Assembly (NCBI GenBank): GCA_964445765.1
Contig: CAYULD010000003.1
Span: 147,480 to 211,479 of the forward strand
Direction: 5' to 3'
Length of the DNA: 64,000 nucleotides
Source of the DNA: an uncultured Rickettsiales bacterium
GTDB lineage: Bacteria; Pseudomonadota; Alphaproteobacteria; Rickettsiales; UBA8987
The position numbers and the translations under genes are program-made. The notes under the pieces were generated by a model. That model searched no databases. It had not been told where the DNA came from and was given only the letters and a program-made list of their open reading frames with translations. Positions 18,393 to 57,519 of the stretch are shown piece by piece (the first letter of the stretch is position 1; every line of letters starts with the position of its first letter).

Positions 18393-18410
18393 TTTTAGTG
18401 TAAAGTAAAC

Positions 18411-18439
18411 TTGACGCATTATATAAAATTTTATATTAT
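18411..18439 (+). promoter_or_regulatory. Candidate sigma70 promoter for the toxin-antitoxin pair (TTGACG-N17-TATTAT)
   Basis: TTGACG is at 18411-18416 and TATTAT at 18434-18439, with TATAAT also at 18437-18442. It lies in the 62 bp gap after the ATP-grasp gene. Confidence 0.4.
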
Positions 18440-18454
18440 AATATGGTTTAATTA

Positions 18455-27739: not shown

Positions 27740-27750
27740 AATTTTATATT

Positions 27751-29560: not shown

Positions 29561-29563
29561 AAT

Positions 29564-30559
29564 ATGAAAACAATATTAGTAACAGGTGGTTTGGGCTTTA
29601 TAGGTAGCAACTTTGTTATTCAAGAAATCAATGCAGGTAACAGAATAATTAATCTTGATAAAGTTACTTATGCCGCAAATTTTGAGAATGTAAAAGAAGT
29701 TGATTCCAATAAAAATTACCATTTTATTAAGGGTGATATTTGTGATGCTAATCTTGTAAAAAAAATTTTTGACGAAAATAAAATTGATTGGGTAGCACAT
29801 TTTGCCGCAGAATCTCATGTTGATAACTCAATTTCAAAACCATCAGAATTTATAGAAACTAATATAATCGGAACATATAATTTGTTACAAAACGCATTGC
29901 AATATTACAGAAATACAAAAGATGAAGCATTTAGATTTCTTCACATTTCAACTGATGAAGTTTTTGGAAGTTTAGAAGAAAATTCTGATAAATTTAATGA
30001 AGATACAAAATATGATCCATCTTCGCCATATTCAGCTTCTAAGGCTTCCTCTGACCATTTAGTAAAAGCGTGGCATCGCACATATGGTTTGCCAATTCTT
30101 ATGACAAATTGCTCTAATAATTATGGCCCTCGCCAACATAAAGAAAAATTGATTCCAAAAACAATTTTTTGTTGTTTAGAAGAAAAGCCAATTCCAATTT
30201 ATGGAAATGGCAAAAATATTCGTGATTGGATATTTGTTGAAGATCACTGCAAAGGCATTAAACTTACGCTTGAAAAGGGCAGGGTTGGGGAATCTTATTT
30301 GTTTGGTGGTAATTGTGAAAAAAATAATTTAGAAGTTGTGAATATTATTTGCGAAGAAATGGATAAAAGAAAACCTCGCAAAAATGGGGCTTCTTATAAA
30401 AATTTAATCAGTTTTGTTAATGATAGGCTTGGCCACGATTTTAGATATGCAATAAATGGCAGAAAGGCTGAAAAAGAGTTTGGATATAACCCCAAGCCAG
30501 ATTTTTCTTTATATATTAATAAAACTATTGATTATTATATTAGCTATTTGAAATCTTAA
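29564..30559 (+). CDS. rmlB: dTDP-glucose 4,6-dehydratase
   Basis: TGGLGFIGSNF Rossmann motif, STDEV, YSASKASSD (YxxxK). Confidence 0.95.
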   Translation: MKTILVTGGLGFIGSNFVIQEINAGNRIINLDKVTYAANFENVKEVDSNKNYHFIKGDICDANLVKKIFDENKIDWVAHFAAESHVDNSISKPSEFIETNIIGTYNLLQNALQYYRNTKDEAFRFLHISTDEVFGSLEENSDKFNEDTKYDPSSPYSASKASSDHLVKAWHRTYGLPILMTNCSNNYGPRQHKEKLIPKTIFCCLEEKPIPIYGNGKNIRDWIFVEDHCKGIKLTLEKGRVGESYLFGGNCEKNNLEVVNIICEEMDKRKPRKNGASYKNLISFVNDRLGHDFRYAINGRKAEKEFGYNPKPDFSLYINKTIDYYISYLKS

Positions 30560-30562
30560 TTT

Positions 30563-31105
30563 ATGCAAATTACTAACCTAGAAATTGAAGGCTTAAAATT
30601 AATAAAGCTCAATATTTATAATGATAATAGAGGCTTTTTTAATGAAAGATATGTTGAAAGCAAATTTCACGAAATTGGTATAAAAAATAAATTTATTCAA
30701 GATAACCATTCTTTTTCTTATCAAGGCGTTATAAGGGGTTTGCATTTTCAATCTAACCCAAATCAAACTAAATTAGTTAGCTGTATTCGTGGAAAAATTC
30801 TTGATGTTGCCGTTGATATTAGAAAGAATTCTAAAACTTATGGCAAATATTATTCAATAGAATTATCTGCTGAAAATGGCTTGATGCTGTATATTCCAGC
30901 GGGTTTTGCCCACGGTTTTTCTGCACTTACAGATTGCGATGTGCTTTATAAAGTTGATGGCACTTATAATCCAAAAGGTGAGGGCGGAATAATTTATAAC
31001 GATAAAACTCTTAATATTGATTGGAAAGTTAAAAACGAAATTGTTTCCGATAAAGATAAAAACTTACCGAGCTTTGCTGAATATAATAATTCCGCTATAT
31101 TTTAA
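30563..31105 (+). CDS. rmlC: dTDP-4-dehydrorhamnose 3,5-epimerase
   Basis: DNRGFF...RGLHFQ...KLV...GFAHGF cupin signature. Confidence 0.95.
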   Translation: MQITNLEIEGLKLIKLNIYNDNRGFFNERYVESKFHEIGIKNKFIQDNHSFSYQGVIRGLHFQSNPNQTKLVSCIRGKILDVAVDIRKNSKTYGKYYSIELSAENGLMLYIPAGFAHGFSALTDCDVLYKVDGTYNPKGEGGIIYNDKTLNIDWKVKNEIVSDKDKNLPSFAEYNNSAIF

Positions 31106-31113
31106 TTTTTTCT

Positions 31114-32016
31114 ATGAATATTTTGGTTTTTGGAAAAACAGGGCAAATTGCCTCAAATTTTTTTGAGATACATAAAAACTATAACAAATTTAATTTTTAT
31201 TTTGCCACTCGTGATGAAGCAGATTTTAGCAAGCCTTCTGCTATATTTGAGTATCTTAATAATCTCAAATTTAAGCCAGATTATATTATTAATGCGGTTG
31301 CTTATACGGCAGTTGATAAGGCAGAAGATGAAAAAGATTTATGTGATAATATCAATGTAAAATCAGTAAAAATTATAGCAGAATTTTCTAAGAAAAATAA
31401 TGTTATTTTAATTCACTATTCAACAGATTATGTTTTTGATGGTGCTGGGCAAGAGCCATTTTTAGAGAGTAATTTTGAAAATCTAAAGCCGTTAAATTAT
31501 TATGGTTTGAGCAAATTGAAATCAGAGCAAGAAATAATAAATTCGCGTTGTAAGTATTTTATATTTAGAATTAGTTGGGTTTATAATCATAGTGGTAAAA
31601 ATTTTCCTTTAACTATTTTGCGTTTAGCAATTGAAAGGGAAGAGTTGAAAATTGTTTCTGATCAATTTGGAAGCCCTTGCTATGCTAAAGATATTGCGGT
31701 TGCAGGGTTAAAATTAATTGATGATTTATCTAAACAAAATGATGATTCTGAGAATATTTTTGGGGTTTATCACTTAACACCTCAAGAATATATTTCTTGG
31801 TATGATTTTACGAATTTGATTATTGAGCAGGCTAAAATAAATAAATTATCGCTTAAGGTAAAAAATATTTTGCCAATAAAATCTGAGGAGTTTTTGTTGC
31901 CAGCTAAAAGACCAAAAAATTCTCGGCTAAATTCAGATAAAGCAAAAAATAAATTAGGTTTGGAACTTCCTAAAATAAAAACATCTCTAGAGGAATTTTT
32001 TTCTAAAGTATTTTAA
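31114..32016 (+). CDS. rmlD: dTDP-4-dehydrorhamnose reductase
   Basis: 300 aa SDR-like protein, STDYVFDG and YGLSK motifs, last gene of rmlBCD. Confidence 0.9.
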   Translation: MNILVFGKTGQIASNFFEIHKNYNKFNFYFATRDEADFSKPSAIFEYLNNLKFKPDYIINAVAYTAVDKAEDEKDLCDNINVKSVKIIAEFSKKNNVILIHYSTDYVFDGAGQEPFLESNFENLKPLNYYGLSKLKSEQEIINSRCKYFIFRISWVYNHSGKNFPLTILRLAIEREELKIVSDQFGSPCYAKDIAVAGLKLIDDLSKQNDDSENIFGVYHLTPQEYISWYDFTNLIIEQAKINKLSLKVKNILPIKSEEFLLPAKRPKNSRLNSDKAKNKLGLELPKIKTSLEEFFSKVF

Positions 32017-46657: not shown

Positions 46658-46990
46658 ATGGTGAAATTTGGTGGCATTTCTGGGGAGCAACTTCGTCAAT
46701 TGGTTGCAAGAATTGAAAAGTTAGAAGAAGAGAAAAAAGAAGTTTCTGAATTTATAAGTGATGCTTATAAAGAAGCAAAAGCCAACGGCTTTGATGTGAA
46801 AGTTCTTAGAAAAATTATTTCACTCAGAAAAAGGGACCAAGCTCAAATCGCTGAAGAAGAAGAGATTATGGATCTCTACAAGCACGCACTTGGAATGATT
46901 AAAATTAGTGATAGCGATGAAGATTCATCTGATGATAATTTAGATGAAATTGAATCTGAAAATAAGGCTAAAACTAAAAAAGTCGCCTAA
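46658..46990 (+). CDS. gapR: GapR-like DUF2312 nucleoid-associated protein with an acidic C-terminal tail
   Basis: [50 protein letters not shown] matches the DUF2312 core. Confidence 0.85.
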
Positions 46991-48072
46991 AACTCATTTA
47001 ATTTTTTGATAATAAATTCAACTTCACTTTTTTTCATTATCGGTGAAATTGGAAGGCTAAGAACTTCTTTATGAATTTTTTCAGTAATAGGTAATTTCTT
47101 TTTGCTATATTCTTTTAAGGCCTCTTGCTTATGTGGTGGAATAGGGTAATGAATAAGTGTTTCAATGGAATTCTCAGCCAAATAATTTTTTAATTTATCT
47201 CTATTTTTGCATCTGATTACATATAAATGCCATACGCAAGAGCCATCATTTACAAAAAGTGGCTTGACAATTTTAGGGTTATTTATCCCATCTTCATACA
47301 TTTTAGCTATAGAAATTCTTGCTTTATTATCAGAATCTAAATGTTTTAATTTTGTAATAAGAACGCCAGCCTGAAATTCATCTAAACGAGAATTGAAACC
47401 CTTATAAATATTTTCATATTTAATATGTGAGCCATAATTTCTAAGAGCTTTTAACTTATCATATAGATTTTTGCTATTGGTTGTTATTGCACCGCCATCA
47501 CCCAATGCACCTAAGTTTTTTCCGGGGTAAAAACTAAAACCAGAAGCAATTCCAAAAGAGCCAGATTTTTTGCCGTTATAAATTGCGCCGTGAGATTGAG
47601 CAGAATCTTCAATTAAATATAAATTATGTTTCTTGGCAATTTCTGAAATTTTATCAATATCAGAAACCAAACCATATAAATGAACTGCTAATATTGCCTT
47701 AGTTTTTTTAGTGATTTTTTTTTCAATTAAATCTGGATTTAGATTATATGTTTCAATTTTAGGCTCAACAAAAACAGGCTTAGCACCATTTGCAACAACC
47801 GCAAGAATTGTTGCAATATAAGTATTTGCTGGCACAATAACTTCATCACCTTTGCCAATTCCAAGGGCTTTAAGAATTAAAATTAGGGCATCAAGCCCAT
47901 TTGCAACCCCAATAGCATATTTAGTGCCACAGAAATTTGCAAAATCTTTTTCAAATTGCTCAACATTTTTGCCAAGAATATACCAACCAGAATCTAGTAT
48001 TTTAGCGGAAGTTCTTAAAAATTCTTTTTTGTAGCGATCATTTATTTTTTTGAGATCTAAAAATTTAATCAT
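46987..48072 (-). CDS. DegT/DnrJ/EryC1/StrS-family sugar aminotransferase (dTDP-3-amino-3,6-dideoxyhexose type, FdtB/QdtB-like)
   Basis: 361 aa, PLP-lysine context [17 protein letters not shown], sits next to an FdtA-like isomerase. Confidence 0.85.
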
Positions 48073-48085
48073 AATTCTAATTTTT

Positions 48086-48496
48086 CTAGAGAGATTTTTT
48101 ATATTCGCAAAATTTTTTATAATCTCTTATATAATCATTTTCATCATATATTTCAGAGGCTAAAACAAGGCAGGTGCAACCTGATGTAAACTCTGATAGA
48201 TCCCGCCAATAGCCTTTTGGAACAAAAACCCCTTCATAAGGATATTTTAAGTTAAAATTAAAAACATTCCCTAAGCCATCATCTAATTTTAAGTTAAAAC
48301 TCCCTGATAAAGAAATAAAAAATTGCGATAATTCTTTATGAGCGTGTGCCCCACGAAATTCACCCGAAGGAACATCATAAATATAGTAAACCCTTTTAAT
48401 ATCAAAACCAACCTCACTTGCTTCAAGAAATGAAATACTCCCTGAATTAGATGAAACCTTGTTTATTTTGTGTAATTTAGGAATTAAACTGTTCAT
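48086..48496 (-). CDS. FdtA/QdtA (WxcM C-terminal)-like dTDP-4-dehydro-6-deoxyglucose 3,4-ketoisomerase
   Basis: 136 aa cupin. GSISFLEA...[22 protein letters not shown] is the typical FdtA string. Confidence 0.8.
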
Positions 48497-49020
48497 TAAA
48501 TAAATCTTTGATATTTTGGCAAAATTTTTTCAAAATCTTCTTTTGTATAAATGTAATAAAAATTTAATTCATCTTCATCGTAGATTTTAGAACCCATTCT
48601 TTGATGAAAATCATTAACACTATAATTATCTTTTCTAACATCAAACTTAGTTAGTTCAAAACCTTTTTCAAAAAAAGCAAATTTATAAATTAATAAAGCG
48701 GATTCAATAGCACAAAATTTGGGTGCATTAGGGATTGTAATCCAGCTTCCCCAACAAAATTCGCTATTAATAATATTATAAATTCTAACTGTTCCAAGTC
48801 TCTCTTGGTTTTTATTTTCAATAATAAAATAAAAATCTTTATTGTTAATTTTATAATTTTTTATGAATTGGATTTGTTTTTCAAGATCATTTTCAATTTT
48901 TGAAATATGCTTAGATTTGCTTTCATTAAGCCGCAATTGTAAAATAAATTCAGCATCCTCTAATTCAATATCTCTAAGATTTATATTTTTTCCTGTAATA
49001 AATTTATTTGCTTTTTTCAT
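48496..49020 (-). CDS. GNAT-family N-acetyltransferase
   Basis: 174 aa with the typical RimL-like N-terminus (INLRDIELEDAEFILQLR). It is the first gene of the three-gene minus-strand amino-sugar operon. Confidence 0.7.
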   Translation of the reverse strand: MKKANKFITGKNINLRDIELEDAEFILQLRLNESKSKHISKIENDLEKQIQFIKNYKINNKDFYFIIENKNQERLGTVRIYNIINSEFCWGSWITIPNAPKFCAIESALLIYKFAFFEKGFELTKFDVRKDNYSVNDFHQRMGSKIYDEDELNFYYIYTKEDFEKILPKYQRFI

Positions 49021-49102
49021 TGAGACTAATACCTTGACAACACTGATATTTTTTTAATACTTGTTAAAAAAAATTAATTCAACTTTAATTAGTAATTATG
49101 TG

Positions 49103-50560
49103 ATGAAAACTATTAATGTTTTATATATAACAGAGGTTTATATTCAAAGTGATTATTGGGGGCCGTTTCATAGGGGTTTTTCAAACTATTTTAATTCTAT
49201 TAATAGTGTAAATTTTACAGGGCTAAATATTAGGTTGCACAAAACTGAAGATATAATTAATAAAATTGAAAAACACTCACCTGATTTTGTTTTTTTTGTT
49301 AATTATGTATCTAATTCAAATGATTATTGTGAATTTATTAAAAAAAGATTTCCTAAATGTAAGTTAGCTCTGTGGTTTATTGATTCTTTTGAGAGGTTTA
49401 AATATGCATCCTTTGAAGCATTAGATGTTTTTGATAAGGTGTTTTTATCTGGAAATGATGAATATATAAATAGGCTAGTTCAATATTTCCCATATCTTGA
49501 TAAGAAGGTTAAATTTCTTCCATTTGCCACTGATTTAAGCAAATTTAATGATAATAACTTAAAAAAAGATATTGATGTTTCATTTGTTGGAACATTGTTT
49601 TACAATTATGAGTTCAAGAGGCTTATTTCAGATAATGTTAGCTTTGATAATCATTACGAAATTTTTAATAATCTTCTAAACAAGCATAGGAATAAATATC
49701 AATTTGGTTTAATTGATAGCTTAAAAAACTCAGGTTTTCAATTTTCAGAAAATGAAAATATGAGATTATTAGAGTCATCTAATGTCCTTCAAACTATATT
49801 TGATGATCAGCTTTCTAAAGAAAAAAGATTAAGGTATTTATCAAGGTTATATGAGTTTAATTTATCTATTCACGGTGAGCCAGTCTCAGAATGGATATTT
49901 AGCATTTGTGATGTTGATTCAAGGTTACTAAGCAAATTTAAGGCTAATGAACCTATAGGTGATAGTGAAGCCCTTTCAAAATTATATAATCGCTCAAAAA
50001 TTTCATTAAATATTCAACATCATCAAGCCTATAATTTTGGTTTAGCTATGAGGATATTTGATATTATGGCTTGTAAATCTTTACTTATAACTGAGCATAC
50101 TTCAATCAAGCCTCTAAATGATTTGGGATTTGAAGAAAATTTAGATTTTGTATCATTTAGTAATGAAAATGATTTATATAATAAGGTTAAAATTTATCTG
50201 AATGATGATAGTAAAAGAAACCAAATTACAGAATCAGCTTATGAAAAAGTAGTAAACTCTCACACCTTTGATAAAAAAATTGCATATATTCTTAAAGAAA
50301 TAGGTTTTGATGAGGCTTCTAAAGAGGCAAATAAGGTATCATATAAAAATTTAATTGATTTCAAAACTCCATCAATTAATTTTAATATTAAAAGTAAAAC
50401 AATTTTTGATAAAATTAAAAATTTCTTTTTCACAAAGCAAGAAATTAAGCCAGTTAAATATAAACTCTTTAACTTAAAACCTATATTTCAATTCAAATTC
50501 AAAATATTTGGTAAATATAAATTTTCTGTATTTGTTGAAGATATTGTTAATAATAAATAA
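49103..50560 (+). CDS. CgeB-like glycosyltransferase (Glyco_trans_1_2-type C-terminal domain)
   Basis: C-terminal RSKISLNIQHHQ...GLAMRIFDIMACKSLLITEH...ESAYEKVVNSHTF resembles the CgeB/DUF3880 family. ATG at 49103 is preferred over TTG at 49061. Confidence 0.6.
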   Translation: MKTINVLYITEVYIQSDYWGPFHRGFSNYFNSINSVNFTGLNIRLHKTEDIINKIEKHSPDFVFFVNYVSNSNDYCEFIKKRFPKCKLALWFIDSFERFKYASFEALDVFDKVFLSGNDEYINRLVQYFPYLDKKVKFLPFATDLSKFNDNNLKKDIDVSFVGTLFYNYEFKRLISDNVSFDNHYEIFNNLLNKHRNKYQFGLIDSLKNSGFQFSENENMRLLESSNVLQTIFDDQLSKEKRLRYLSRLYEFNLSIHGEPVSEWIFSICDVDSRLLSKFKANEPIGDSEALSKLYNRSKISLNIQHHQAYNFGLAMRIFDIMACKSLLITEHTSIKPLNDLGFEENLDFVSFSNENDLYNKVKIYLNDDSKRNQITESAYEKVVNSHTFDKKIAYILKEIGFDEASKEANKVSYKNLIDFKTPSINFNIKSKTIFDKIKNFFFTKQEIKPVKYKLFNLKPIFQFKFKIFGKYKFSVFVEDIVNNK

Positions 50561-50580
50561 AATATTTTCAGTAACTAATA

Positions 50581-51999
50581 ATGTTGGTTAATAATAAAAT
50601 TATTATTGTTGATCTTGATAATACATTTATCAAAACAGATCTTCTATATGAAGCATTTGTTCAGTTAATAAAGTTCAGGTTTTGGCTGGTTTTTTTAATG
50701 CCAATATGGTTGATTAGAGGTAAATTATATTTTAAGAAAAAAATTTTTGAAGGTTACTCTTTAAGAGAAGATTTACTTCCATATAATTATGATGTCATAA
50801 ATTACATCAAAGATAAATGGAATTCAGGACATAAAATATATTTATACTCTGCTTCACCTGAAGAATTTGTAAAAAAAATTGCTAATAAATTTGAGTTTTT
50901 TTCTGGTTTTAGGGGCTCCACAAATATTAATCTTAAATCAATTAATAAGCTAAAAGCAATAATAGAAGATTTTGGAGAAAATTTTGATTATATTGGAGAT
51001 TCTTTAGATGATATAGTTATATGGAATAAAGCAATAAATAAAATTGCGGTTAATCCTAATAAAAAAATATTTAAGTTTCTTAGCAAAGATAAATTTGAAA
51101 AAATATTTACTTACGGCAATAATTTGAAATCTCTAATTAAATTAATTAGGGTTCATCAGTGGAGTAAAAATTTTTTAGTATTTACGCCTTACATTATTAG
51201 GGGAGATTTTAGTGATATAAGCCTATTAATTAATTTTATAATTATCTTTTTTTGTATTTCGTTAATCTCAAGCGGAACATATATAATCAATGACTTGTTT
51301 GATTTGAATAGTGATAGGCTTCACCCATCCAAAAAAAATAGGCCATTAGCAAATGGGGATACTAAAATAATTTATGCTATTTATTTAGCTCCTATTCTAA
51401 TTATTTCAGGGTTATTAATTTCTTACAATTTATCAATAAATGCTTTTTTATCATTAATTTCATATATAATAATTACCTTATCTTACTCTTTATATTTTAA
51501 GAAATTGGCAATTTTAGATGTAATATTAATCGCAGGATTATTTACATTAAGGGTAATTGCTGGTTCATTATTAATAGAGGAACCAATTTCTCATTGGCTT
51601 TTAGCTTTCACATTTACAATCTTTTTTAGCTTAGCGATTTCTAAAAGAGTTTCAGATATTAAGTTGATAATTGATAGTAGCGATAAAAAAAATTTAGATG
51701 GCAGAGGCTATAAAATTGAAGATGAAATTTTTTTGACAATATCAGGTATATCATCAGGTTTTGCTTCAATATTAATATTTTCTTTATATCTTGTTTTAGA
51801 ACAATTTAAGAGAGATATTTTTTCAAATAATGAATTTTTATGGTTTGTATGCATGCTTATAATGTTTTGGATGCTTAGAATTTGGTTCAAAACATGCAGG
51901 GGAGAAATTAAATGTGATCCCGTTATATTTGCCTTAAAAGATAAGACATCTATAATTATGGGTTTATTTTCATTAATATTTATATATTTTGCTTGGTGA
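50581..51999 (+). CDS. Fusion protein: N-terminal HAD-superfamily phosphatase domain + UbiA-family polyprenyl-phosphate phosphoribosyltransferase (Rv3806c-like)
   Basis: HAD motif I VDLDNTF, motif II YSAS and motif IV IGDSLDD lie in residues 1 to about 185. The UbiA Asp-rich motif NDLFDLNSDRLHPSKKNRPLANGD follows, with about 8 TM helices. Confidence 0.8.
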   Translation: MLVNNKIIIVDLDNTFIKTDLLYEAFVQLIKFRFWLVFLMPIWLIRGKLYFKKKIFEGYSLREDLLPYNYDVINYIKDKWNSGHKIYLYSASPEEFVKKIANKFEFFSGFRGSTNINLKSINKLKAIIEDFGENFDYIGDSLDDIVIWNKAINKIAVNPNKKIFKFLSKDKFEKIFTYGNNLKSLIKLIRVHQWSKNFLVFTPYIIRGDFSDISLLINFIIIFFCISLISSGTYIINDLFDLNSDRLHPSKKNRPLANGDTKIIYAIYLAPILIISGLLISYNLSINAFLSLISYIIITLSYSLYFKKLAILDVILIAGLFTLRVIAGSLLIEEPISHWLLAFTFTIFFSLAISKRVSDIKLIIDSSDKKNLDGRGYKIEDEIFLTISGISSGFASILIFSLYLVLEQFKRDIFSNNEFLWFVCMLIMFWMLRIWFKTCRGEIKCDPVIFALKDKTSIIMGLFSLIFIYFAW

Positions 52000-53303
52000 T
52001 GGAAGAATCTAAAGAATATCTATCTTGGGGAAGAATTTTAAGATTCAAGCATAAAGTTATTGATAACTTGCAAGAAATTAATTTTGCTAACAATGATTTT
52101 ATATTAGCCTATGGCAATGGAAGATCTTACGGCGATTCTTGCTTAAATGAAGGTAAAACTCTTTTTGATACTCGTAAATTAAAGAATTTTATATCATTTG
52201 ATGAATCGCAAGGAATTTTAGAATGTCAGTCTGGGGTTCAATTTTATGAAATTTTAGAATTATTAAAATCTAGAGCTAGAAAAGGTCTTAAAAAGTTCTT
52301 TATACCTGTTACACCCGGAACAAAATTTATTACTATAGGCGGTGCAATAGCTAATGATGTTCACGGCAAAAATCATTACAAAATGGGTTCATTTGGAAAT
52401 CACCTTATTTCTTTCAAGCTATTAAGAAGTGATAATCAAATTATAGAATGTAGCAAAGAGGAAAATTCAGAATTGTTTTTTTCTACTATTGGTGGCTTGG
52501 GTTTAACCGGCATAATTTTATCTGCTAAAATAAGGCTTATGGAAGCAAGTTCTTTTTACATAGAAGTAGAAAAAAAGATATTTTATAATTTAGATGAATT
52601 TTATAAAATTGATAATGATTCTAAAGATAAATATTTATACACAGTTGCTTGGTTAGATAGTTTTAGCAATGGCAGGGGCGTTTATTATAGAGGAAACCAC
52701 TCTAATATAGAAAAAATTCCTGAATATAAAAAGCCTATAACATTTTTTTCAAAATTTAATGTTAAAATCTTTAACCAATTCTTTATTAAAATTTTTAATA
52801 TTATTTACTTTAGAATAGCTTGTTTAACAAAAGATAAAAAATATTATTCTGATTACGATAGTTTTTTTTACCCACTAGATAAAATTAAAAATTGGAATAT
52901 TTTTTATGGTAAAAATGGCTTTTATCAATTCCAGTTCCTAATCCCTTATAAAAATAGTTCTTCTTTAATTGAAATTCTAAGTATTATTAAAAAAAGTAAT
53001 TCCGCCTCTTTTTTATCAGTTCTAAAAACCTTTGGAGGCATTCACTCACGGGGGTATTTGTCATTCCCTAGCGAAGGAATTACTCTCGCATTAGATTTTG
53101 TTAATCAAGGTGAAAAAACAAAAAATCTATTATTGGAGTTAGAAAAGATAGTTATAGAAAATAATGGTAAAATATATCCAGCTAAGGATATGCTTATGTC
53201 AAAGAATAGTTTTTATAATTCTTATAATAAGATTAATTTATTTAAGAACTATATTGATAGTAAATTTTCATCTAGCTTTTGGAGGCGTATAAATAATGTC
53301 TAA
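51999..53303 (+). CDS. FAD-dependent oxidoreductase, DprE1-like (polyprenyl-phospho-ribose 2'-oxidase)
   Basis: GNGRSYGDS and PVTPGTKFITIGGAIANDVHGKNHY match the DprE1 strings GRSYGD and PGT..VT.GGAIA.D.HGKNH. The ATG overlaps the upstream TGA (TGATG). Confidence 0.75.
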   Translation: MEESKEYLSWGRILRFKHKVIDNLQEINFANNDFILAYGNGRSYGDSCLNEGKTLFDTRKLKNFISFDESQGILECQSGVQFYEILELLKSRARKGLKKFFIPVTPGTKFITIGGAIANDVHGKNHYKMGSFGNHLISFKLLRSDNQIIECSKEENSELFFSTIGGLGLTGIILSAKIRLMEASSFYIEVEKKIFYNLDEFYKIDNDSKDKYLYTVAWLDSFSNGRGVYYRGNHSNIEKIPEYKKPITFFSKFNVKIFNQFFIKIFNIIYFRIACLTKDKKYYSDYDSFFYPLDKIKNWNIFYGKNGFYQFQFLIPYKNSSSLIEILSIIKKSNSASFLSVLKTFGGIHSRGYLSFPSEGITLALDFVNQGEKTKNLLLELEKIVIENNGKIYPAKDMLMSKNSFYNSYNKINLFKNYIDSKFSSSFWRRINNV

Positions 53304-54039
53304 AAATATTTTAATTTTTGGTGCAAACTCAGATATAATGCAAGAATTTGCTAGAATTAATGCTCTTGAAGAGAGTAATAATTTTTTTCTTATAGGTAGA
53401 GATATAGAAAGAATTAAAATTCTTAAAGATGATTTAATTGTTAGGGGTGCAAAATCAGTTGATTTTTTAAGTGCAGATTTATCTGAAATTAAGAATATAG
53501 AAAATATTATGTCTGAAGTTTCTAAAAAGTTTTCTATAATAGATGTTTGTATTATTGCTCAAGGCTCTCTAACTAACCAAATTAAAGCAGAAAATGATAT
53601 AGATTATTTTTTCTATGAGGCTAGGCTTAATAGCCTTTCTTATATGTGTATTACACTAGAATTAATAAAAGTTTTTGGAGTAGATAAAATTAAAAATATT
53701 GTTTTTATAACATCGGTTGCTGGGGATAGAATAAGGCAATCTAACTATATTTATGGCACATTCAAATCTTCCTTATCTAGTTTTTTATCAGGTTTAAGGC
53801 ATAAATATTATAATAAAGAAATTAATTTTATTGAAATAAAGCCCGGTTTTACAAAAACAAAGATGACTAAAGAATTCAAAAAGAACCTTTTATGGTCTGA
53901 GCCTTCAGTTATAGCTAATGACATAAAAAAGGCTATTTTACATAATAAAAAAGTTGTTTATTCGCCTTTTTGGTGGAAGTTTATAATGTTAATTATTAAG
54001 TTGTTGCCAACATTTATATTCAATAAACTTAAGATATGA
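53296..54039 (+). CDS. Short-chain dehydrogenase/reductase, DprE2-like
   Basis: ILIFGANSDIM nucleotide-binding turn and YGTFK (YxxxK) catalytic motif. It overlaps the upstream gene by 8 nt. Confidence 0.7.
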   Translation: MSKNILIFGANSDIMQEFARINALEESNNFFLIGRDIERIKILKDDLIVRGAKSVDFLSADLSEIKNIENIMSEVSKKFSIIDVCIIAQGSLTNQIKAENDIDYFFYEARLNSLSYMCITLELIKVFGVDKIKNIVFITSVAGDRIRQSNYIYGTFKSSLSSFLSGLRHKYYNKEINFIEIKPGFTKTKMTKEFKKNLLWSEPSVIANDIKKAILHNKKVVYSPFWWKFIMLIIKLLPTFIFNKLKI

Positions 54040-54437
54040 TAAAATCTTTACTAAATAATAATTTTATTAAATTTCTTATTTTAGGCGGTGTTGCGGCATT
54101 AATAAACTTTGTATCAAGAATTTTTATAAATTTTTTTTTAAGCTACAGATTTTCAATAATCTTATCATATTTTTTAGGAATGATTGTCGCTTTCTATTTG
54201 TTCAGGAAGTTCATTTTTATTAAATCTCAAAAGCCAATTAAAAAACAAATTTATGGTTTTGTTACAGTTAACATTCTTGGTATAATTCAAGTTTGGTGCG
54301 TAAGTGTTTTTCTAGAAGAGTTTTTTTTTCCGTTGATTAGCTTTAATTTTTATTCTAAGGAGTTTGCTCACGCAATAGGGATATCGGTTCCTGCGATAAC
54401 AAGCTATTTTGGTCATAAATACCTAAGTTTTAGTTAA
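54036..54437 (+). CDS. GtrA-family membrane protein
   Basis: 133 aa with four TM helices. The N-terminal FIKFLILGGVAALINF is typical of GtrA. ATGA overlap with the upstream gene. Confidence 0.8.
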   Translation: MIKSLLNNNFIKFLILGGVAALINFVSRIFINFFLSYRFSIILSYFLGMIVAFYLFRKFIFIKSQKPIKKQIYGFVTVNILGIIQVWCVSVFLEEFFFPLISFNFYSKEFAHAIGISVPAITSYFGHKYLSFS

Positions 54438-54439
54438 AT

Positions 54440-55666
54440 ATGCAAGAATTTACATATAAAAATTTTGCTCATAAAGTTTTAATATCTTTAAATAAATTTT
54501 ATCCGCTCATTCTCGTTTTAGCTATTTTATATTTTTTGCAGAATTTCTATCTTAATATTACCCCCTCAAAATGTGAAGGGCTTGGTGATTGTGTAAAATA
54601 TTCTCAAATGGCAGAAAATTTTGGTAATAATAATCAGGTGAAGATTGAAACCCCCTTTAATTTAAGAATTTTAGCACCTTATTTATCTAGCTTAATTTCT
54701 AAAGATACTCAGATTGCTTTTAAGATTTTGAATTCTGTTTCAATTTTAGTATTCTGTTTTTTTTCCTTTTTTACCCTTAAAAAATTGGAAATTAATAATT
54801 ATTATTCAGCAATTTTTTTCTCTTGGTTTTTTCTTCACCCTTTAGGTTTTCAATATTACTTTGTAGTGCCTGTAATGGTTGATATGCTATATTATGCAGC
54901 ACTTAGTATAATTATTTATTTAGCTGTAACTAAAGAAAAGTTTTTAATATGGTTAGCGTTCCTCACTTTTGCTTTTATAAAAGAGACAATTATTTTTATA
55001 GCCCTAATTTACTATTTATGTCTAATAGTTAATGAATTAAAAGAAAAAAATGTAAAAAAAATATCTTTCAACTTTTTTAGCCTAGTATTCTTTTTTCTGA
55101 TTTATAATCTAATTAAAGAAAATATTGTTCTTAATAAATTTCCTAACCTGCAAGAGTGGGAAGTTACGCCATTAACCACTGTAAAATGGTTTTTTAATGA
55201 GCTTTTGAAAGATTATAACAGGCTTATAATTTGGTTTTGCTCGTTTTTTTGTGCGGTAGGCTTTTATTTTTTGTCTATTTTTAATTTTAGTATAAAAAAT
55301 TTATTTATTAATTTATATGAAAATATAACGCTTCAAGGTTTCTTATTTTTAATTTCCTGTGCTATGATTTTATTCGGAATTTTAGCTGGATCAGATATGA
55401 CAAGAATAATCTTTAATGGTTCACAATTTATTTTATTATTTAGTTTTTTAGTTATCAAGAAAAATTCAAAACTAAATATTTCTGATTATTTAATTCCCTT
55501 ATTTAGCTTTTTACTATTATTTTCGTATAGTAAATTTTTTCCAAGCAACTTAGAATATAAATATTATTACGAAAAAGAAATTACTCCATATTTTAGCTTA
55601 GGATTTATTTTTTTAATTACTTCTATTGGTCTAATTTTTTTGTTAAAAAAGTACAAAGCTGAATGA
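54440..55666 (+). CDS. Polytopic integral membrane protein; candidate GT-C-type glycosyltransferase or polymerase
   Basis: 408 aa with about 10-12 hydrophobic segments and a first loop of about 45 residues containing acidic residues. No family recognised by eye. The function is inferred only from position. Confidence 0.35.
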   Translation: MQEFTYKNFAHKVLISLNKFYPLILVLAILYFLQNFYLNITPSKCEGLGDCVKYSQMAENFGNNNQVKIETPFNLRILAPYLSSLISKDTQIAFKILNSVSILVFCFFSFFTLKKLEINNYYSAIFFSWFFLHPLGFQYYFVVPVMVDMLYYAALSIIIYLAVTKEKFLIWLAFLTFAFIKETIIFIALIYYLCLIVNELKEKNVKKISFNFFSLVFFFLIYNLIKENIVLNKFPNLQEWEVTPLTTVKWFFNELLKDYNRLIIWFCSFFCAVGFYFLSIFNFSIKNLFINLYENITLQGFLFLISCAMILFGILAGSDMTRIIFNGSQFILLFSFLVIKKNSKLNISDYLIPLFSFLLLFSYSKFFPSNLEYKYYYEKEITPYFSLGFIFLITSIGLIFLLKKYKAE

Positions 55667-56520
55667 ATTATTTTACTATATTAACAAGGGGTAGAACAGG
55701 CTCAACTGCTGTTATTGATTATCTCAACAGGGTTCCTAATGTTGCGTGCTATCAAGAATTATTCAAATATAGCCCCGGATTAAAACAAGAAATTAAAGAT
55801 ATTATAAATTCTGAGCTAGGTGTTTCAGGAAAAGTAAATTTTGAAACAAAAGTTATAGATAAACAACCCTTAGATTATGATTTTTACTCAAACTATTTTG
55901 GCAAAGATATTACTAAATATCTAGATTATCTAATGGAGTATTCTAATAGAAAAAAATTGTTTTTTGTAAAAAATAATAAAAATTTTATAGGTTTTAAGTT
56001 ATTATTTAATCATTTAGAGCATTTTTCTAACTCAGAAAATTTATTGCAAATTTTAGTTAATAATGGATGTAAATTTTTAATTCTTAGAAGAAAAAACCCT
56101 CTTAAAGAAGCATTATCTGGTGTGATTGCTAGTAATAGGGGAACATTTAACATTAATAAAAAAACTGAAAAAGAAAAATTTAATAATTTTAAGAAAAATA
56201 TATTTAATAAAAAAATAAAAATATCTTCTAAACAAGTTGCTGATGAAGTAGCTTACATTGAATATAATTATCCAATATTTGAAAAGATTTTATTGGATTC
56301 ATCAGCGTCATATAAATATATATATTATGAAGATCTTCTATATAATAAAGATAAATTTATAAGAGATGTATGCCATTTTATTGGTTGTGATAGCAAGTTT
56401 AATCTATTTGAAAACAACTATGTAAAAATAACCCCTGATGATTTATCTAATATAATAGAAAATTATGATGAGTTTGTTAGAGAAATCAGGGAAGTTCATC
56501 AAATTGAATATGAATTATAA
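55663..56520 (+). CDS. NodH/Stf0-like P-loop sulfotransferase
   Basis: The N-terminus FTILTRGRTGSTAVIDYLNRVPNVACYQELF parallels the 5'-PSB loop region of NodH-type sulfotransferases (RTG-T/S ... HPNV ... EL). ATGA overlap with the upstream gene. Confidence 0.55.
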   Translation: MNYFTILTRGRTGSTAVIDYLNRVPNVACYQELFKYSPGLKQEIKDIINSELGVSGKVNFETKVIDKQPLDYDFYSNYFGKDITKYLDYLMEYSNRKKLFFVKNNKNFIGFKLLFNHLEHFSNSENLLQILVNNGCKFLILRRKNPLKEALSGVIASNRGTFNINKKTEKEKFNNFKKNIFNKKIKISSKQVADEVAYIEYNYPIFEKILLDSSASYKYIYYEDLLYNKDKFIRDVCHFIGCDSKFNLFENNYVKITPDDLSNIIENYDEFVREIREVHQIEYEL

Positions 56521-57519
56521 AGTATTTTTTGAAAATATAGGTATATTCAAAAAATAAAATCTATTTTTCCCACCTTTCACAACACACTTAAATAAACTGA
56601 TTCCGAAGAATTTTACAACTGTTTTTTGGAAGGTTTTTTTTATATGCAAAATTTTTATACCAAAAATTGAAATTATTTTTTCATAATCTTTATATTTTTT
56701 CCATAAATCTTCTTTACCAAATTCAATCGCTTTTTGGTGCTCAAGCAAATAAGTTTGTTTTTTTGCTTCATTCATCCAGTCAAAATTATTAGAGGTGCTG
56801 GAATAATGTTTTCTATAATAAGTTATTGCATTATTATTAAACTTAAAATTACCAATTTTAGCAAGCTGTAAAACTAAAAACCAATCTTCTAATTTTGCGA
56901 TTTCAGAATAGCCCCCAACTGCATCAAAAGCAGATTTTTTTATTAAAAAACCATTTGGAATATAATTCCCTTTTAATAGAGATTCATATGAGCCAAACTG
57001 AGGGGAGTTAAAATTTACATCCGGCCTTTTTGATAAAATTAACTCATCAAAACTAAATATTTTTGCGGAATTTTTATCATAAGTTTTTTGCTCTTTTTCT
57101 TTTAGATAAAAAATTTTATTATTTTCATCTACGAAATAATTTTTGCCAACCGCTAAAACAAGATTTTCATCTTCTTCAAAAGTTTTAACTAAAATTTCTA
57201 TGGTATTATTTTCAATAAAATCATCAGAGGCAATTGGGAATAAATAGAAGCCATTAATATATTGTTTTGCCTTACATAAACTTTTTTGTAAGCCAAGATT
57301 TGCTTCATTTTTAATGAATTTTACGAAGATATTTTTCTCAGTAAAATTTGGTAAGAAATTTTCAATTTCTAAAGCGGTATTATCAGTTGAAAAATCATCA
57401 ATAATAATAAGCTCTAAATTTTTATAAGTTTGATTTAATATAGATTGCAAACAAGTTTTAATATAATTCTGATGATTATATGATGGTATTAAAACGCTAA
57501 CAAGTTTGCTTTCAAGCAT
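56515..57519 (-). CDS. Family 2 glycosyltransferase
   Basis: VSVLIPSYNHQNYIKTCLQSILNQTYKNLELIIIDDFSTDNT. Confidence 0.85.
   Translation of the reverse strand: MLESKLVSVLIPSYNHQNYIKTCLQSILNQTYKNLELIIIDDFSTDNTALEIENFLPNFTEKNIFVKFIKNEANLGLQKSLCKAKQYINGFYLFPIASDDFIENNTIEILVKTFEEDENLVLAVGKNYFVDENNKIFYLKEKEQKTYDKNSAKIFSFDELILSKRPDVNFNSPQFGSYESLLKGNYIPNGFLIKKSAFDAVGGYSEIAKLEDWFLVLQLAKIGNFKFNNNAITYYRKHYSSTSNNFDWMNEAKKQTYLLEHQKAIEFGKEDLWKKYKDYEKIISIFGIKILHIKKTFQKTVVKFFGISLFKCVVKGGKNRFYFLNIPIFSKNTL

What the first reader, a model, noticed from the sequence alone, without database searches (positions are those of the whole stretch)
50581..55666. Polyprenyl-phosphate D-arabinofuranose (DPA-type) donor pathway in an AT-rich alphaproteobacterium-like genome
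Five tightly coupled genes (overlaps TGATG, 8 nt, ATGA, and a 2 nt gap) encode the following:
- a UbiA-family enzyme with the NDxxDxxxD...RP motif, as in mycobacterial Rv3806c (polyprenyl-phosphate 5-phosphoribosyltransferase);
- a DprE1-like FAD oxidase (GRSYGD, PGT...GGAIANDVHGKNH);
- a DprE2-like SDR (YxxxK);
- a GtrA-family protein, like Rv3789, which is linked to DPA handling;
- an unassigned polytopic membrane protein.

In Corynebacteriales this gene set makes decaprenyl-phospho-D-arabinofuranose for arabinan. Outside them it is known only sporadically, for example in pilin arabinosylation in some Pseudomonas aeruginosa strains and Nod-factor arabinosylation genes in Azorhizobium. Finding the whole set with a new domain fusion, a possible new transferase and a sulfotransferase suggests an undescribed D-Araf-containing, possibly sulfated, surface glycan.
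Basis: partly seen in the sequence, partly recalled or inferred. Interest (0 to 1): 0.75.

Follow-up and report, generated by a model that had tools for sequence, protein, structure and literature searches.

The report
Arabinofuranose side-chain glycosylation gene module
The five genes are real and most likely make a lipid-linked D-arabinofuranose donor and attach it to a surface sugar polymer outside the cytoplasm, but this kind of system was described in 2024, so only the unannotated membrane transferase family is possibly new.

Summary
Five co-directional, overlapping genes at 50581-55666 encode a HAD-UbiA fusion, a DprE1-like FAD oxidase, a DprE2-like SDR, a GtrA protein and a 408-aa polytopic protein.

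For three of them the closest solved structure is the matching mycobacterial enzyme: DPPRS 1.5e-24, DprE1 2e-59, DprE2 2e-17. Decoy families score far lower.

The HAD-UbiA "new fusion" is an existing NCBIfam equivalog (NF006088, 484 bits). It has the architecture of the biochemically characterised Citrobacter youngae ORF15. Full-length copies lie on 81 plasmid or chromid records.

The block is an arabinofuranose-type "three-component pentofuranose side-chain system" (Kelly et al., PNAS 2024), and such systems are widespread rather than sporadic.

The 408-aa protein models confidently (pLDDT 95) as a minimal GT-C-fold glycosyltransferase. It has no Pfam, NCBIfam or PDB sequence match. Its relatives sit directly after DprE2 in six other distinct loci from unrelated bacteria.

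The block lies in a low-GC glycan island with FdtA/DegT/GNAT amino-sugar genes, two cytoplasmic glycosyltransferases and a NodH/Stf0-type sulfotransferase. The sulfotransferase's relatives travel with the amino-sugar genes, not with the arabinose module.

Verdict: new member of a known kind, with a candidate new GT-C family.

The parts
50581..51999 (+). Fusion of an N-terminal HAD-type phosphoribose phosphatase and a C-terminal UbiA-type polyprenyl-phosphate 5-phosphoribosyltransferase. Predicted product: polyprenyl-P-ribofuranose made from PRPP.
   Evidence: NCBIfam NF006088 484 bits (cutoff 351), covering residues 6-471. DPPRS models score 143/135/109 bits; heme O synthase and UbiA score 35 bits or less. 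Best PDB match is M. tuberculosis DPPRS 8j8j at 1.5e-24; the next is DGGGP synthase at 6.7e-8. HAD motif D11xD13xT15 and GDSLDD are intact. N237, D238, D241 and D245 are invariant among five homologs. Same architecture as C. youngae ORF15 (PMC11127046).
51999..53303 (+). DprE1-like FAD-dependent oxidase. Predicted reaction: polyprenyl-P-ribose to the 2'-keto intermediate.
   Evidence: PDB DprE1 entries at 2e-59 over residues 38-415; the next family, cytokinin dehydrogenase, is at 2e-9. NCBIfam DprE1 model NF053785 scores 305 bits, below its 500-bit cutoff; the next family scores 44 bits. The HGKNH motif and the YPAKD lysine align with the corresponding M. tuberculosis motifs. The residue aligned with the C of M. 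tuberculosis NICVDF, which I take from memory to be Cys387, the benzothiazinone target, is Ala.
53296..54039 (+). DprE2-like short-chain dehydrogenase/reductase. Predicted reaction: 2'-keto intermediate to polyprenyl-P-arabinofuranose.
   Evidence: PF00106 70 bits. The only PDB sequence at or below 1e-8 is DprE2 (21gq_C, 2.2e-17). NCBIfam NF005489 scores 220 bits and the DprE2 model NF053786 119 bits, both below cutoff. GANSDI and Y153xxxK157 are present. The DprE1-DprE2 gene pair is syntenic in L007, L008, L014 and L023; L002 and L017 show DprE2 preceded by the 3' end of a DprE1 gene at the contig edge.
54036..54437 (+). GtrA-family small membrane protein. Candidate flippase or scaffold for the lipid-linked pentofuranose.
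   Evidence: PF04138 40.2 bits (cutoff 26.1). GtrA genes sit in the same modules in L007, L008 and L014. The role is inferred from Rv3789 and PsPA7_6247.
54440..55666 (+). 408-aa polytopic membrane protein (here 'MP408') with a predicted minimal GT-C fold. Candidate periplasmic arabinofuranosyltransferase.
   Evidence: No Pfam, NCBIfam or PDB sequence hit for it or its family. AlphaFold2 on 82 sequences gives pLDDT 95.0 and pTM 0.93. The top Foldseek PDB hits are all GT-C enzymes: STT3 8age_A (E 6.5e-3, prob 1.00, TMq 0.55), ALG12, ArnT 5f15, PglB, AglB. Transporter hits have TM below 0.22. D50, Y54, R76 and D148 are invariant in 82 sequences. By a positive-inside reading these fall on predicted periplasmic loops. 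Homologs lie directly after DprE2 in L002/3, L004, L007, L008, L015/16 and L017, and next to the HAD-UbiA/DprE1/DprE2 operon in L023.
55663..56520 (+). NodH/Stf0-type PAPS-dependent sulfotransferase (soluble, cytoplasmic), translationally coupled to the preceding gene.
   Evidence: ATGA overlap with the preceding gene. Alone, PF13469 scores 24.5 bits, below the gathering score of 27. The family profile hits PDB 9vki 'LPS sulfotransferase NodH' at 2.4e-14 and Stf0 at 2.8e-4. 21 of 23 relatives match PF13469. RTGS (residues 11-14), R143 and S152 are invariant. Relatives lie beside DegT/FdtA genes in L025 and L026.
49061..50560 (+). Cytoplasmic glycosyltransferase-like protein (Glyco_trans_1_2), 20 nt upstream of the HAD-UbiA gene. 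Likely first gene of the same transcription unit; the true start is probably ATG at 49103.
   Evidence: PF13524 76 bits. A protein of the same family is in the related cluster L023. Intergenic sequence read. The promoter scan gave no more hits than expected by chance.
56515..57519 (-). Family 2 glycosyltransferase, convergent with the sulfotransferase gene and overlapping it by 6 nt.
   Evidence: NCBIfam GT2-type hits at 2.6e-17 and weaker. Homologous GT2 genes lie next to DegT/FdtA in L007, L009, L019/20 and L023.
46987..49020 (-). Divergent three-gene unit: DegT-type aminotransferase (46987-48072), FdtA-type 3,4-ketoisomerase (48086-48496) and GNAT acyltransferase (48496-49020). Predicted pathway to a dTDP-3-acylamino-3,6-dideoxyhexose.
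   Evidence: PF01041 380 bits, PF05523 150 bits, PF13302 35 bits. DegT and FdtA recur within 10 kb of MP408 homologs in L007, L008, L009, L019/20 and L023.
26846..32016 (.). Context only: second glycan locus with rmlA, a GT2, an RgpF-like rhamnan synthesis protein, rmlB, rmlC and rmlD. It can supply the dTDP-4-keto-6-deoxyglucose that FdtA/DegT need.
   Evidence: Pfam hits. Agrobacterium pDG3-1a places rfbA/rfbD, a GT2 and 'rhamnan synthesis F' next to its HAD-UbiA/DprE module.

Best explanation
The block is an arabinofuranose-type, extracytoplasmic pentofuranose glycosylation module inside a surface-polysaccharide gene island.

Inferred steps:
1. [quoted passage not shown]
2. The fused HAD domain removes the 5-phosphate, giving polyprenyl-P-ribofuranose.
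3. The DprE1-like FAD oxidase and the DprE2-like reductase invert C2' through a 2'-keto intermediate, giving polyprenyl-P-D-arabinofuranose.
4. The GtrA protein helps move or hand over the lipid-linked sugar across the inner membrane.
5. The 408-aa GT-C-fold protein uses this donor in the periplasm to add arabinofuranose to an already assembled glycan.

That glycan is probably built by the neighbouring cytoplasmic glycosyltransferases. It probably contains a 3-acylamino-3,6-dideoxyhexose made by FdtA/DegT/GNAT, and it may be sulfated in the cytoplasm by the NodH/Stf0-type enzyme.

Shown here: gene order and coupling, family relationships, intact catalytic motifs, the GT-C fold prediction, and conserved gene neighbourhoods. 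Inferred: every enzymatic activity, the identity of the lipid carrier, the pentose, the acceptor and the linkage.
For: Nearest characterised relatives are the three mycobacterial enzymes, with wide margins over decoys.

The fusion passes the NF006088 equivalog cutoff. It shares the architecture and motifs of C. youngae ORF15, whose two activities were shown in vitro (PMC11127046; motifs).

Kelly et al. report that DprE1/E2 homologs accompany such systems where the glycan contains Araf, and that the transporters are MATE or SMR type.

GtrA scores above its Pfam cutoff. GtrA genes are present in the homologous modules L007, L008 and L014.

MP408 models at pLDDT 95, and its best structural matches are all GT-C enzymes. 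Its invariant acidic, aromatic and basic residues fall on loops predicted to be periplasmic.

MP408 homologs directly follow DprE2 in six further distinct loci with GC from 0.39 to 0.56. In L023, 8 of the island's 11 genes recur together.

In L007, L020 and L023 the related clusters carry ABC-transporter (Wzm/Wzt-like) genes. This fits post-polymerisation periplasmic side-chain addition.
Against: - No activity was measured and the organism is an uncultured MAG.
- The DprE1, DprE2 and DPPRS equivalog models are all hit below their curated cutoffs, so orthology in the strict sense is not established.
- The Foldseek E-values for MP408 are weak (best 6.5e-3) and TM-scores are 0.45-0.55.
- Several MP408 homologs have no DprE genes nearby: L010, L011, L019/20, L021 and L024.
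- L023 has a second polytopic GT-C-like candidate.
- No export or ligation genes (Wzx, Wzy, Wzm/Wzt, WaaL) were found in the ORFs of 120 aa or more that were scanned across the 64-kb window.
Confidence: 0.66

Rival explanations
1. The donor pathway is as described, but MP408 is not the arabinofuranosyltransferase. It has another envelope role, such as polymerase, ligase, flippase or a transferase for a different lipid-linked sugar tied to the amino-sugar glycan. The Araf transferase would then be encoded elsewhere.
For: MP408 homologs occur with FdtA/DegT but without DprE genes on contigs L009 and L019/20. They stand alone in L010, L011, L021 and L024. L023 carries a second GT-C-like membrane protein with a 'MDDSYITFRYARNL' loop after its first helix. 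Foldseek E-values are modest.
Against: There are no structural matches to WaaL, Wzy, SEDS or flippase folds. All confident matches are GT-C enzymes. DprE2 lies immediately upstream in six distinct loci, plus the window via GtrA. The contigs that lack DprE are short or end within about 3 kb downstream of the gene (L009, L019, L020). The window block has no other candidate transferase for a lipid-linked donor.
Confidence: 0.18
2. The module arabinosylates a protein (pilin or flagellin) rather than a polysaccharide, as TfpW does for type IV pilin in Pseudomonas aeruginosa Pa5196/PA7.
For: In P. aeruginosa the Araf genes and the pilin genes are unlinked. The window encodes a 246-aa protein with a prepilin N-terminal methylation motif at 6367-7107.
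Against: The prepilin-like gene is 44 kb away and has no pilus-assembly neighbours. The module is embedded in polysaccharide genes here. In L007, L020 and L023 the related clusters carry ABC-2 type exporters. MP408 lacks the large periplasmic TPR domain described for the 646-aa TfpW.
Confidence: 0.08
3. The oxidase/SDR pair yields a pentofuranose other than arabinose, or the lipid-linked ribose itself is transferred. The glycan would then carry Ribf, a keto-pentose or another epimer.
For: The DprE1 and DprE2 equivalog cutoffs are not reached. The characterised GT136 enzyme accepts more than one pentofuranose donor. Some related clusters, such as Agrobacterium pDG3-1a, carry extra epimerase and oxidoreductase genes.
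Against: DprE1 and DprE2 are by far the closest characterised relatives. The DprE1 motif residues HGKNH and YPAKD are conserved. Kelly et al. found DprE1/E2 homologs specifically in Araf-containing systems and a different SDR for Xylf.
Confidence: 0.06
4. Decoy reading: the UbiA protein is a quinone, heme or archaeal-lipid prenyltransferase, and the oxidase and SDR are unrelated redox enzymes that happen to be adjacent.
For: Weak sub-threshold hits to heme O synthase, UbiA and GGGP-type models.
Against: Those hits score 64 bits or less, against 484 bits for the fusion family and 109-143 bits for the DPPRS models. PDB ranking puts DPPRS 17 orders of magnitude ahead of DGGGP synthase. The same gene combination recurs in L007, L008, L014 and L023.
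Confidence: 0.02

Closest known systems
Three-component extracytoplasmic pentofuranose side-chain system (Citrobacter youngae O1/O2 ORF15-ORF14-ORF12; Kelly et al., PNAS 2024, PMC11127046)
   Same: - N-terminal HAD phosphatase fused to a C-terminal UbiA-type polyprenyl-phosphoribose synthase.
- A small membrane transporter.
- A GT-C-fold transferase.
- Auxiliary epimerase genes that set the pentose; DprE1/E2 homologs are reported for Araf-containing glycans.
- Location inside a polysaccharide locus.

   Different: The transporter here is GtrA-type, not the MATE-type ORF14. The transferase is 408 aa with no C-terminal carbohydrate-binding domain, against 652 aa for ORF12. It shows no detectable sequence similarity to the GT-C candidates of two other HAD-UbiA systems tested. 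GT136 membership could not be tested. A sulfotransferase gene is translationally coupled downstream.
Mycobacterial decaprenyl-phospho-arabinose pathway (Rv3806c, Rv3807c, DprE1 Rv3790, DprE2 Rv3791, Rv3789, Emb/Aft GT-C enzymes)
   Same: Same chemistry is predicted: PRPP plus polyprenyl-P, dephosphorylation, 2'-oxidation and reduction, a GtrA-family protein, and a GT-C transferase. The closest solved structures for three proteins are these enzymes.
   Different: - About 30-40% identity, and below NCBIfam equivalog cutoffs.
- The phosphatase is a fused HAD domain rather than a separate PAP2 enzyme.
- The residue aligned with the benzothiazinone-target cysteine of M. tuberculosis DprE1 is Ala.
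- The carrier is probably undecaprenyl, not decaprenyl (inference).
- There are no Emb/Aft homologs.
- The product is probably a side chain rather than an arabinan core.
Pseudomonas aeruginosa PA7/Pa5196 D-Araf pilin glycosylation (PsPA7_6245-6249 plus TfpW)
   Same: A Gram-negative polyprenyl-P-Araf pathway with a GtrA-like protein encoded between the synthase and DprE1/DprE2, and a GT-C transferase. L007 and L008 share the GtrA-DprE1-DprE2 order, and L007 also has a separate PAP2 phosphatase gene next to its UbiA gene.
   Different: In the window the phosphatase is fused, GtrA follows DprE2, and the GT-C gene is inside the operon rather than next to pilA. The context is polysaccharide, not pilin.
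Gtr (GtrA/GtrB/GtrC) O-antigen glucosylation of Shigella and Salmonella phages
   Same: Same logic: a lipid-phosphate-linked monosaccharide donor, a GtrA-family protein and a serotype-specific GT-C enzyme acting in the periplasm.
   Different: Here the donor is made from PRPP by a UbiA enzyme, not from a UDP-sugar by a GtrB-type GT2. An epimerisation step occurs on the lipid. No prophage context was found, and there was no MP408 relative in viral contigs.

Membership tests
Three-component pentofuranose glycosylation system (Kelly et al. 2024) | UbiA-type polyprenyl-phosphate phosphoribosyltransferase with the N-D-x-x-D-x-x-x-D loop | tested here: met
   N237, D238, D241 and D245 are invariant in five homologs. 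DPPRS is the best PDB match at 1.5e-24.
Three-component pentofuranose glycosylation system (Kelly et al. 2024) | HAD-family phosphoribose phosphatase domain with the loop-I catalytic Asp (D18 in ORF15) | tested here: met
   D11-L-D13-N-T15 and GDSLDD are present and conserved in the fusion homologs. NF006088 covers residues 6-471.
Three-component pentofuranose glycosylation system (Kelly et al. 2024) | Small membrane transporter (MATE or SMR/GtrA type) encoded with the synthase | tested here: met
   PF04138 40.2 bits against a cutoff of 26.1. The gene overlaps DprE2 by ATGA. Flippase activity itself is not testable here.
Three-component pentofuranose glycosylation system (Kelly et al. 2024) | GT-C-fold glycosyltransferase encoded with the synthase | tested here: met
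   Met at fold level only. The model has pLDDT 95, and its top PDB matches are STT3, ALG12, ArnT, PglB and AglB at probability 0.98-1.00 and TMq 0.39-0.55.
Three-component pentofuranose glycosylation system (Kelly et al. 2024) | DprE1/DprE2 homologs present when the pentose is Araf | tested here: met
   The pentose itself is not testable with these tools.
NCBIfam NF006088 (PRK08238, UbiA family prenyltransferase with N-terminal HAD domain) | Whole-protein score at or above the curated cutoff (351 bits) | tested here: met
   484.1 bits, E 4.2e-145.
DprE1 equivalog (NCBIfam NF053785) | Score at or above 500 bits | tested here: not met
   305.2 bits. It is the top family by 260 bits, so this is a homolog and not a curated equivalog.
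DprE2 equivalog (NCBIfam NF053786) | Score at or above 250 bits | tested here: not met
   118.8 bits. The best model is NF005489 at 220.5 bits, below its own cutoff of 267. DprE2 is the only PDB hit at or below 1e-8.
Decaprenyl-phosphate phosphoribosyltransferase equivalogs (NF008977/8/6) | Score at or above 234/207/474 bits | tested here: not met
   142.8, 135.2 and 108.6 bits.
CAZy GT136 (C. youngae ORF12) | Sequence similarity to ORF12 and its catalytic residues D31, E34, H106 and R349 | not testable with these tools
MP408 has an invariant D50-x-x-x-Y54, the same D-to-Y spacing as D31...Y35 in ORF12. This is a lead only.
GT-C superfamily | Polytopic membrane core with an acidic catalytic residue in the first extracytoplasmic loop after TM1 | tested here: met
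   About 12 predicted membrane helices. Invariant D50 starts the first loop helix after TM1. Lys/Arg-rich short loops all fall on the opposite side, by the positive-inside rule. The catalytic role is inferred.
Sulfotransfer_3 / NodH-Stf0 sulfotransferases | Pfam PF13469 gathering score (27 bits) | tested here: not met
   24.5 bits for the window protein alone.
Sulfotransfer_3 / NodH-Stf0 sulfotransferases | Family-level homology and PAPS-binding motifs | tested here: met
   The profile of 23 relatives matches NodH structure 9vki at 2.4e-14 and Stf0 at 2.8e-4. 21 of 23 relatives match PF13469. RTGS (11-14), R143 and S152 are invariant.

The most novel reading that the evidence does not exclude
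The 408-aa protein founds a previously unclassified, minimal GT-C family. The family has about 390 clusters at 50% identity, no Pfam or NCBIfam model and no large periplasmic domain. It would be a dedicated polyprenyl-P-D-arabinofuranose transferase that decorates a conserved, ABC-transporter-type polysaccharide containing a 3-acylamino-3,6-dideoxyhexose in several proteobacterial lineages. In this alphaproteobacterium the glycan would additionally be sulfated, giving an undescribed sulfated, Araf-bearing surface polymer.
Probability: 0.3. Interest if true: 0.55.

Novelty: new member of a known kind. Interest (0 to 1): 0.38.

Why it matters
The result extends the recently defined pentofuranose side-chain pathway to an uncultured, AT-rich alphaproteobacterium.

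It also gives a concrete candidate for a new family of arabinofuranosyltransferases. That family recurs next to DprE2 in unrelated bacteria and could be tested directly with the farnesyl-phosphate donors already synthesised for the Citrobacter system.

It corrects the impression that DprE1/DprE2-type arabinose donors are nearly confined to Corynebacteriales. That bears on how specific these enzymes are as markers or drug targets. Here the residue aligned with the benzothiazinone-target cysteine is alanine.

It does not change the current understanding of the pathway.

Tried and rejected
- Exact look-ups of the window's SDR and DprE1 proteins in the contig index found nothing. The source record could not be named beyond an NCBI contig of 316,637 bp and Logan run SRR12997672.
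- The first AlphaFold run, with only 4 sequences, gave pLDDT 66 and weak matches. It was replaced by the 82-sequence run.
- Sequence and profile searches of MP408 against PDB chains gave no hit even at E = 10. Pfam hit none of the 82 family members. There was no match in plasmids or viral contigs.
- Profile comparison of the MP408 family with the hypothetical membrane proteins next to HAD-UbiA genes in Vibrio and Agrobacterium showed no relationship. These were single-sequence targets, so the test is weak.
- The genome-collection scan with the 82-sequence alignment failed for lack of a conserved stretch. It worked with 24 sequences but returned only 5 loci. The metagenome scan returned 6.
- The promoter and terminator scan was uninformative in this AT-rich DNA: 73 promoter-like sites against 78.8 expected.
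- The repeat search found no flanking direct repeats or mobile-element ends around the island.
- A SAR11 origin was considered, but it was not tested. The window encodes a methyl-accepting chemotaxis protein and a sigma-54 activator. MnmG relatives are named only as Alphaproteobacteria or Rickettsiales MAGs.
HMM and PDB score margins were used instead.

Full report
**1. What is in the sequence**

ORF listing and junction reading confirm five co-directional + strand genes:
- 50581-51999
- 51999-53303 (alternative TTG/GTG starts at 51993 and 51996)
- 53296-54039
- 54036-54437
- 54440-55666

They are joined by TGATG, an 8-nt overlap, ATGA and a 2-nt gap. A sixth gene (55663-56520) overlaps the fifth by ATGA, and a seventh (49061-50560) ends 20 nt before the first.

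Per-gene GC is 0.23-0.27, against 0.32-0.36 for the flanks. So the block lies in a compositionally distinct island of about 10.5 kb (46987-57519). The island sits between a GapR-type gene (46658-46990) and mnmG (57544-59436).

GapR (PF10073, 100 bits) points to an uncultured alphaproteobacterium. So do the named relatives of MnmG, which are Alphaproteobacteria at 75% identity and Rickettsiales MAGs at 61-63%. All window proteins tested are singletons at 90% identity.

**2. The four recognisable proteins**

*HAD-UbiA fusion.* The first protein matches NCBIfam NF006088 end to end at 484 bits (cutoff 351). It then matches three decaprenyl-phosphate phosphoribosyltransferase models at 109-143 bits. 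Heme O synthase, 4-hydroxybenzoate prenyltransferase and chlorophyll synthase score 35 bits or less. In the PDB its UbiA domain is closest to M. tuberculosis DPPRS (8j8j, 1.5e-24), and the next hit is DGGGP synthase at 6.7e-8. HAD motif I (D11-L-D13-N-T15) and GDSLDD are intact. N237, D238, D241 and D245 are invariant across five homologs.

*DprE1-like oxidase.* The second protein aligns to DprE1 structures over residues 38-415 at 2e-59; the next family, cytokinin dehydrogenases, is at 2e-9. The DprE1 HMM scores 305 bits against 44 for sugar-lactone oxidases. The HGKNH motif and the YPAKD lysine align with the corresponding M. tuberculosis motifs. The residue aligned with the cysteine of the M. 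tuberculosis NICVDF motif is alanine; I identify that cysteine from memory as Cys387, the benzothiazinone target.

*DprE2-like SDR.* For the third protein, the only PDB sequence at or below 1e-8 is DprE2 (2.2e-17).

*GtrA.* The fourth protein passes the Pfam GtrA threshold, 40.2 bits against 26.1.

The DprE1, DprE2 and DPPRS equivalog cutoffs are not reached, however. These are homologs, not curated equivalogs.

**3. The fusion and the gene set are already known**

Kelly, Duong, Nothof, Lowary and Whitfield (PNAS 2024, PMC11127046) showed that C. youngae ORF15 has the same architecture. It carries an N-terminal HAD phosphoribose phosphatase and a C-terminal UbiA polyprenyl-phosphoribose synthase, and it makes lipid-linked ribofuranose from PRPP. 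A small transporter then exports the donor, and a GT-C enzyme (GT136) adds the sugar to the O-polysaccharide in the periplasm.

They report that:
- DprE1/E2 homologs accompany these systems where the glycan contains Araf;
- the transporters are MATE or SMR type;

DprE1-like genes were found on 18 records that include Acidobacteriota, Bacteroidota and Cyanobacteria.

Agrobacterium salinitolerans pDG3-1a has the order HAD-UbiA, FAD oxidoreductase, SDR, two further redox genes, GtrA. This run lies next to rfbA/rfbD and a rhamnan synthesis gene. The P. aeruginosa PA7 cluster has phosphatase, synthase, GtrA-like, DprE1, DprE2.

So "new domain fusion" and "known only sporadically" do not hold.

**4. 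The fifth protein (MP408)**

It has no Pfam or NCBIfam hit. The word-indexed search found only four relatives. An exhaustive profile search found 391 representative clusters at E 1e-3 or better and 31 at 1e-30 or better. None of 82 members tested matches any Pfam family. The family profile matches no PDB sequence even at E = 10.

With an 82-sequence alignment, AlphaFold2 gives pLDDT 95.0 and pTM 0.93. Every Foldseek match with probability above 0.8 is a GT-C glycosyltransferase:
- yeast STT3 (E 6.5e-3, probability 1.00, TMq 0.55)
- ALG12
- ArnT bound to undecaprenyl phosphate (probability 0.99, TMq 0.48)
- PglB
- AglB

MFS and other transporters have TM-scores below 0.22.

Four residues are invariant in all 82 sequences: D50, Y54, R76 and D148. 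H133, K181, E182, D319 and R322 are at least 90% conserved.

I read the predicted helices with the positive-inside rule. The Lys/Arg-rich short loops (114-115, 164-167, 201-207, 340-345 and the C-terminus) fall on one side. All conserved polar residues fall on the other, with D50 opening the first loop after TM1. This is the GT-C pattern. The assignment is my inference, because model coordinates could not be inspected.

**5. Gene neighbourhoods of MP408 relatives**

A DprE2-like gene lies immediately upstream in six further distinct loci: L002/L003, L004, L007 (Motiliproteus MAG), L008 (Alphaproteobacteria MAG), L015/L016 and L017. Their GC ranges from 0.39 to 0.56.

- L007 and L008 carry GtrA, DprE1, DprE2 and the MP408 homolog in a row. 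A non-fused UbiA gene lies on the other strand. In L007 a PAP2-type phosphatase sits beside it, which is the P. aeruginosa and mycobacterial solution.
- In L023 a HAD-UbiA/DprE1/DprE2 operon diverges from the MP408 homolog. The cluster also holds DegT, FdtA, a GT2 and a Glyco_trans_1_2 protein, so 8 of the window island's 11 genes recur.

The linkage is not universal. L009 and L019/L020 have the homolog with FdtA/DegT/GT2, but the contigs end within about 3 kb downstream. L010, L011, L021 and L024 show unrelated neighbours. L023 also has a second GT-C-like membrane protein.

I therefore put the specific assignment "MP408 is the Araf transferase" at roughly 0.55-0.6. That is lower than my confidence in the donor pathway.

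**6. The rest of the island and the sulfotransferase**

Divergent from the block are DegT, FdtA and a GNAT. This is the standard route from dTDP-4-keto-6-deoxyglucose to an N-acylated 3-amino-3,6-dideoxyhexose (pathway from general knowledge). An rmlA / GT2 / RgpF / rmlB / rmlC / rmlD locus at 26846-32016 can supply the precursor. DegT/FdtA and a homologous GT2 recur with MP408 homologs in five other loci. Related clusters in L007, L020 and L023 encode ABC-2 type exporters.

This fits an ABC-transporter-dependent polysaccharide that is decorated in the periplasm, as in the Citrobacter model. No exporter or ligase was found in the ORFs of 120 aa or more scanned across the window.

The protein at 55663-56520 alone is just under the Pfam sulfotransferase threshold, 24.5 bits against 27. 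A profile of 23 relatives matches the NodH LPS sulfotransferase structure at 2.4e-14 and Stf0 at 2.8e-4. 21 of 23 relatives match PF13469, and the RTGS loop, R143 and S152 are invariant.

Its nearest relatives sit directly after a DegT gene (L026), or between a GT61 and Wzm/Wzt in an FdtA/DegT cluster that lacks any Araf module (L025). Sulfation needs cytoplasmic PAPS (general knowledge). It therefore most likely acts on the backbone glycan before export, not on the periplasmically added arabinose.

**7. Verdict**

The functional reading of a polyprenyl-phosphate D-arabinofuranose donor pathway is well supported by homology, motifs and synteny, but it is untested biochemically.

The novelty claims are overstated. 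The fusion and the gene set belong to a kind of system described in 2024 and found widely. What remains open and moderately interesting is a candidate new GT-C family tied to DprE2. It occurs in a recurrent glycan cluster that combines an amino-dideoxyhexose, arabinofuranose and, in this genome, sulfation.

Novelty: new member of a known kind. Interest: 0.38.

Noticed in passing
L013:6486-9410 (Azospirillum ramasamyi plasmid NZ_CP029831.1): A single 974-aa protein combines a GT87 (GT-C) domain, a HAD domain and a UbiA domain, and is followed by a small EamA transporter gene. This looks like a whole pentofuranose side-chain system compressed into two genes.
   Followed up: partly
L016:7881-10886: Here the MP408 homolog is the N-terminal third of a 1001-aa protein. 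The remaining ~600 aa form a second polytopic region with no Pfam match. The upstream DprE2-like gene is truncated and fused to foreign sequence, amid transposase-like genes.
   Followed up: partly
L007:4280-6253: In the Motiliproteus MAG the MP408 homolog and a hexapeptide-repeat acyltransferase read as one 657-aa ORF, followed by a MaoC dehydratase. In L020 a hexapeptide acyltransferase gene lies directly upstream instead. The fusion might be real or an assembly or frame artefact.
   Followed up: no
L023:15401-16606 (- strand): A second 401-aa polytopic protein in the related cluster carries 'WPYTMDDSYITFRYARNL' right after its first helix, a DD-type loop reminiscent of GT-C enzymes. It has no Pfam hit.
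   Followed up: no
window 26846-32016: A second low-GC glycan locus: rmlA and a GT2 on the - strand, then an RgpF-like rhamnan synthesis protein, rmlB, rmlC and rmlD on the + strand. Agrobacterium pDG3-1a likewise pairs rhamnan genes with its HAD-UbiA/DprE module.
   Followed up: partly
window 6367-7107 (- strand): An orphan 246-aa protein with a prepilin N-terminal methylation motif (PF07963). It lies between a poly(A) polymerase/CCA-adding enzyme family (PolyA_pol domain) gene and a DUF2126 gene, with no pilus assembly genes nearby.
   Followed up: no
window 56515-56520: The sulfotransferase gene (+) and the GT2 gene (-) converge and overlap by 6 nt at their 3' ends. This leaves no room for an intergenic terminator.
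   Followed up: no
L025:8001-8825 and L026:302-1147: Relatives of the window's sulfotransferase (32% and 41% identity) sit inside FdtA/DegT amino-sugar clusters. In L025 the gene lies immediately before Wzm/Wzt exporter genes, a position where chain-terminating enzymes are often encoded (general knowledge).
   Followed up: partly
window 7163-10498 and 16968-20044: Two separated sets of genes: a transglutaminase-like/DUF2126 amidoligase protein (1111 aa), and a circularly permuted ATP-grasp protein with an Alpha-E domain protein. These genes are usually found together as one conserved cluster of unknown function (general knowledge).
   Followed up: no
window 59782-60651 (- strand) and 40791-42638: An Mrr-type restriction endonuclease lies just beyond mnmG at the edge of the island. 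A ShlB/FhaC-type two-partner secretion transporter lies further upstream, with no obvious cargo gene noted.
   Followed up: no
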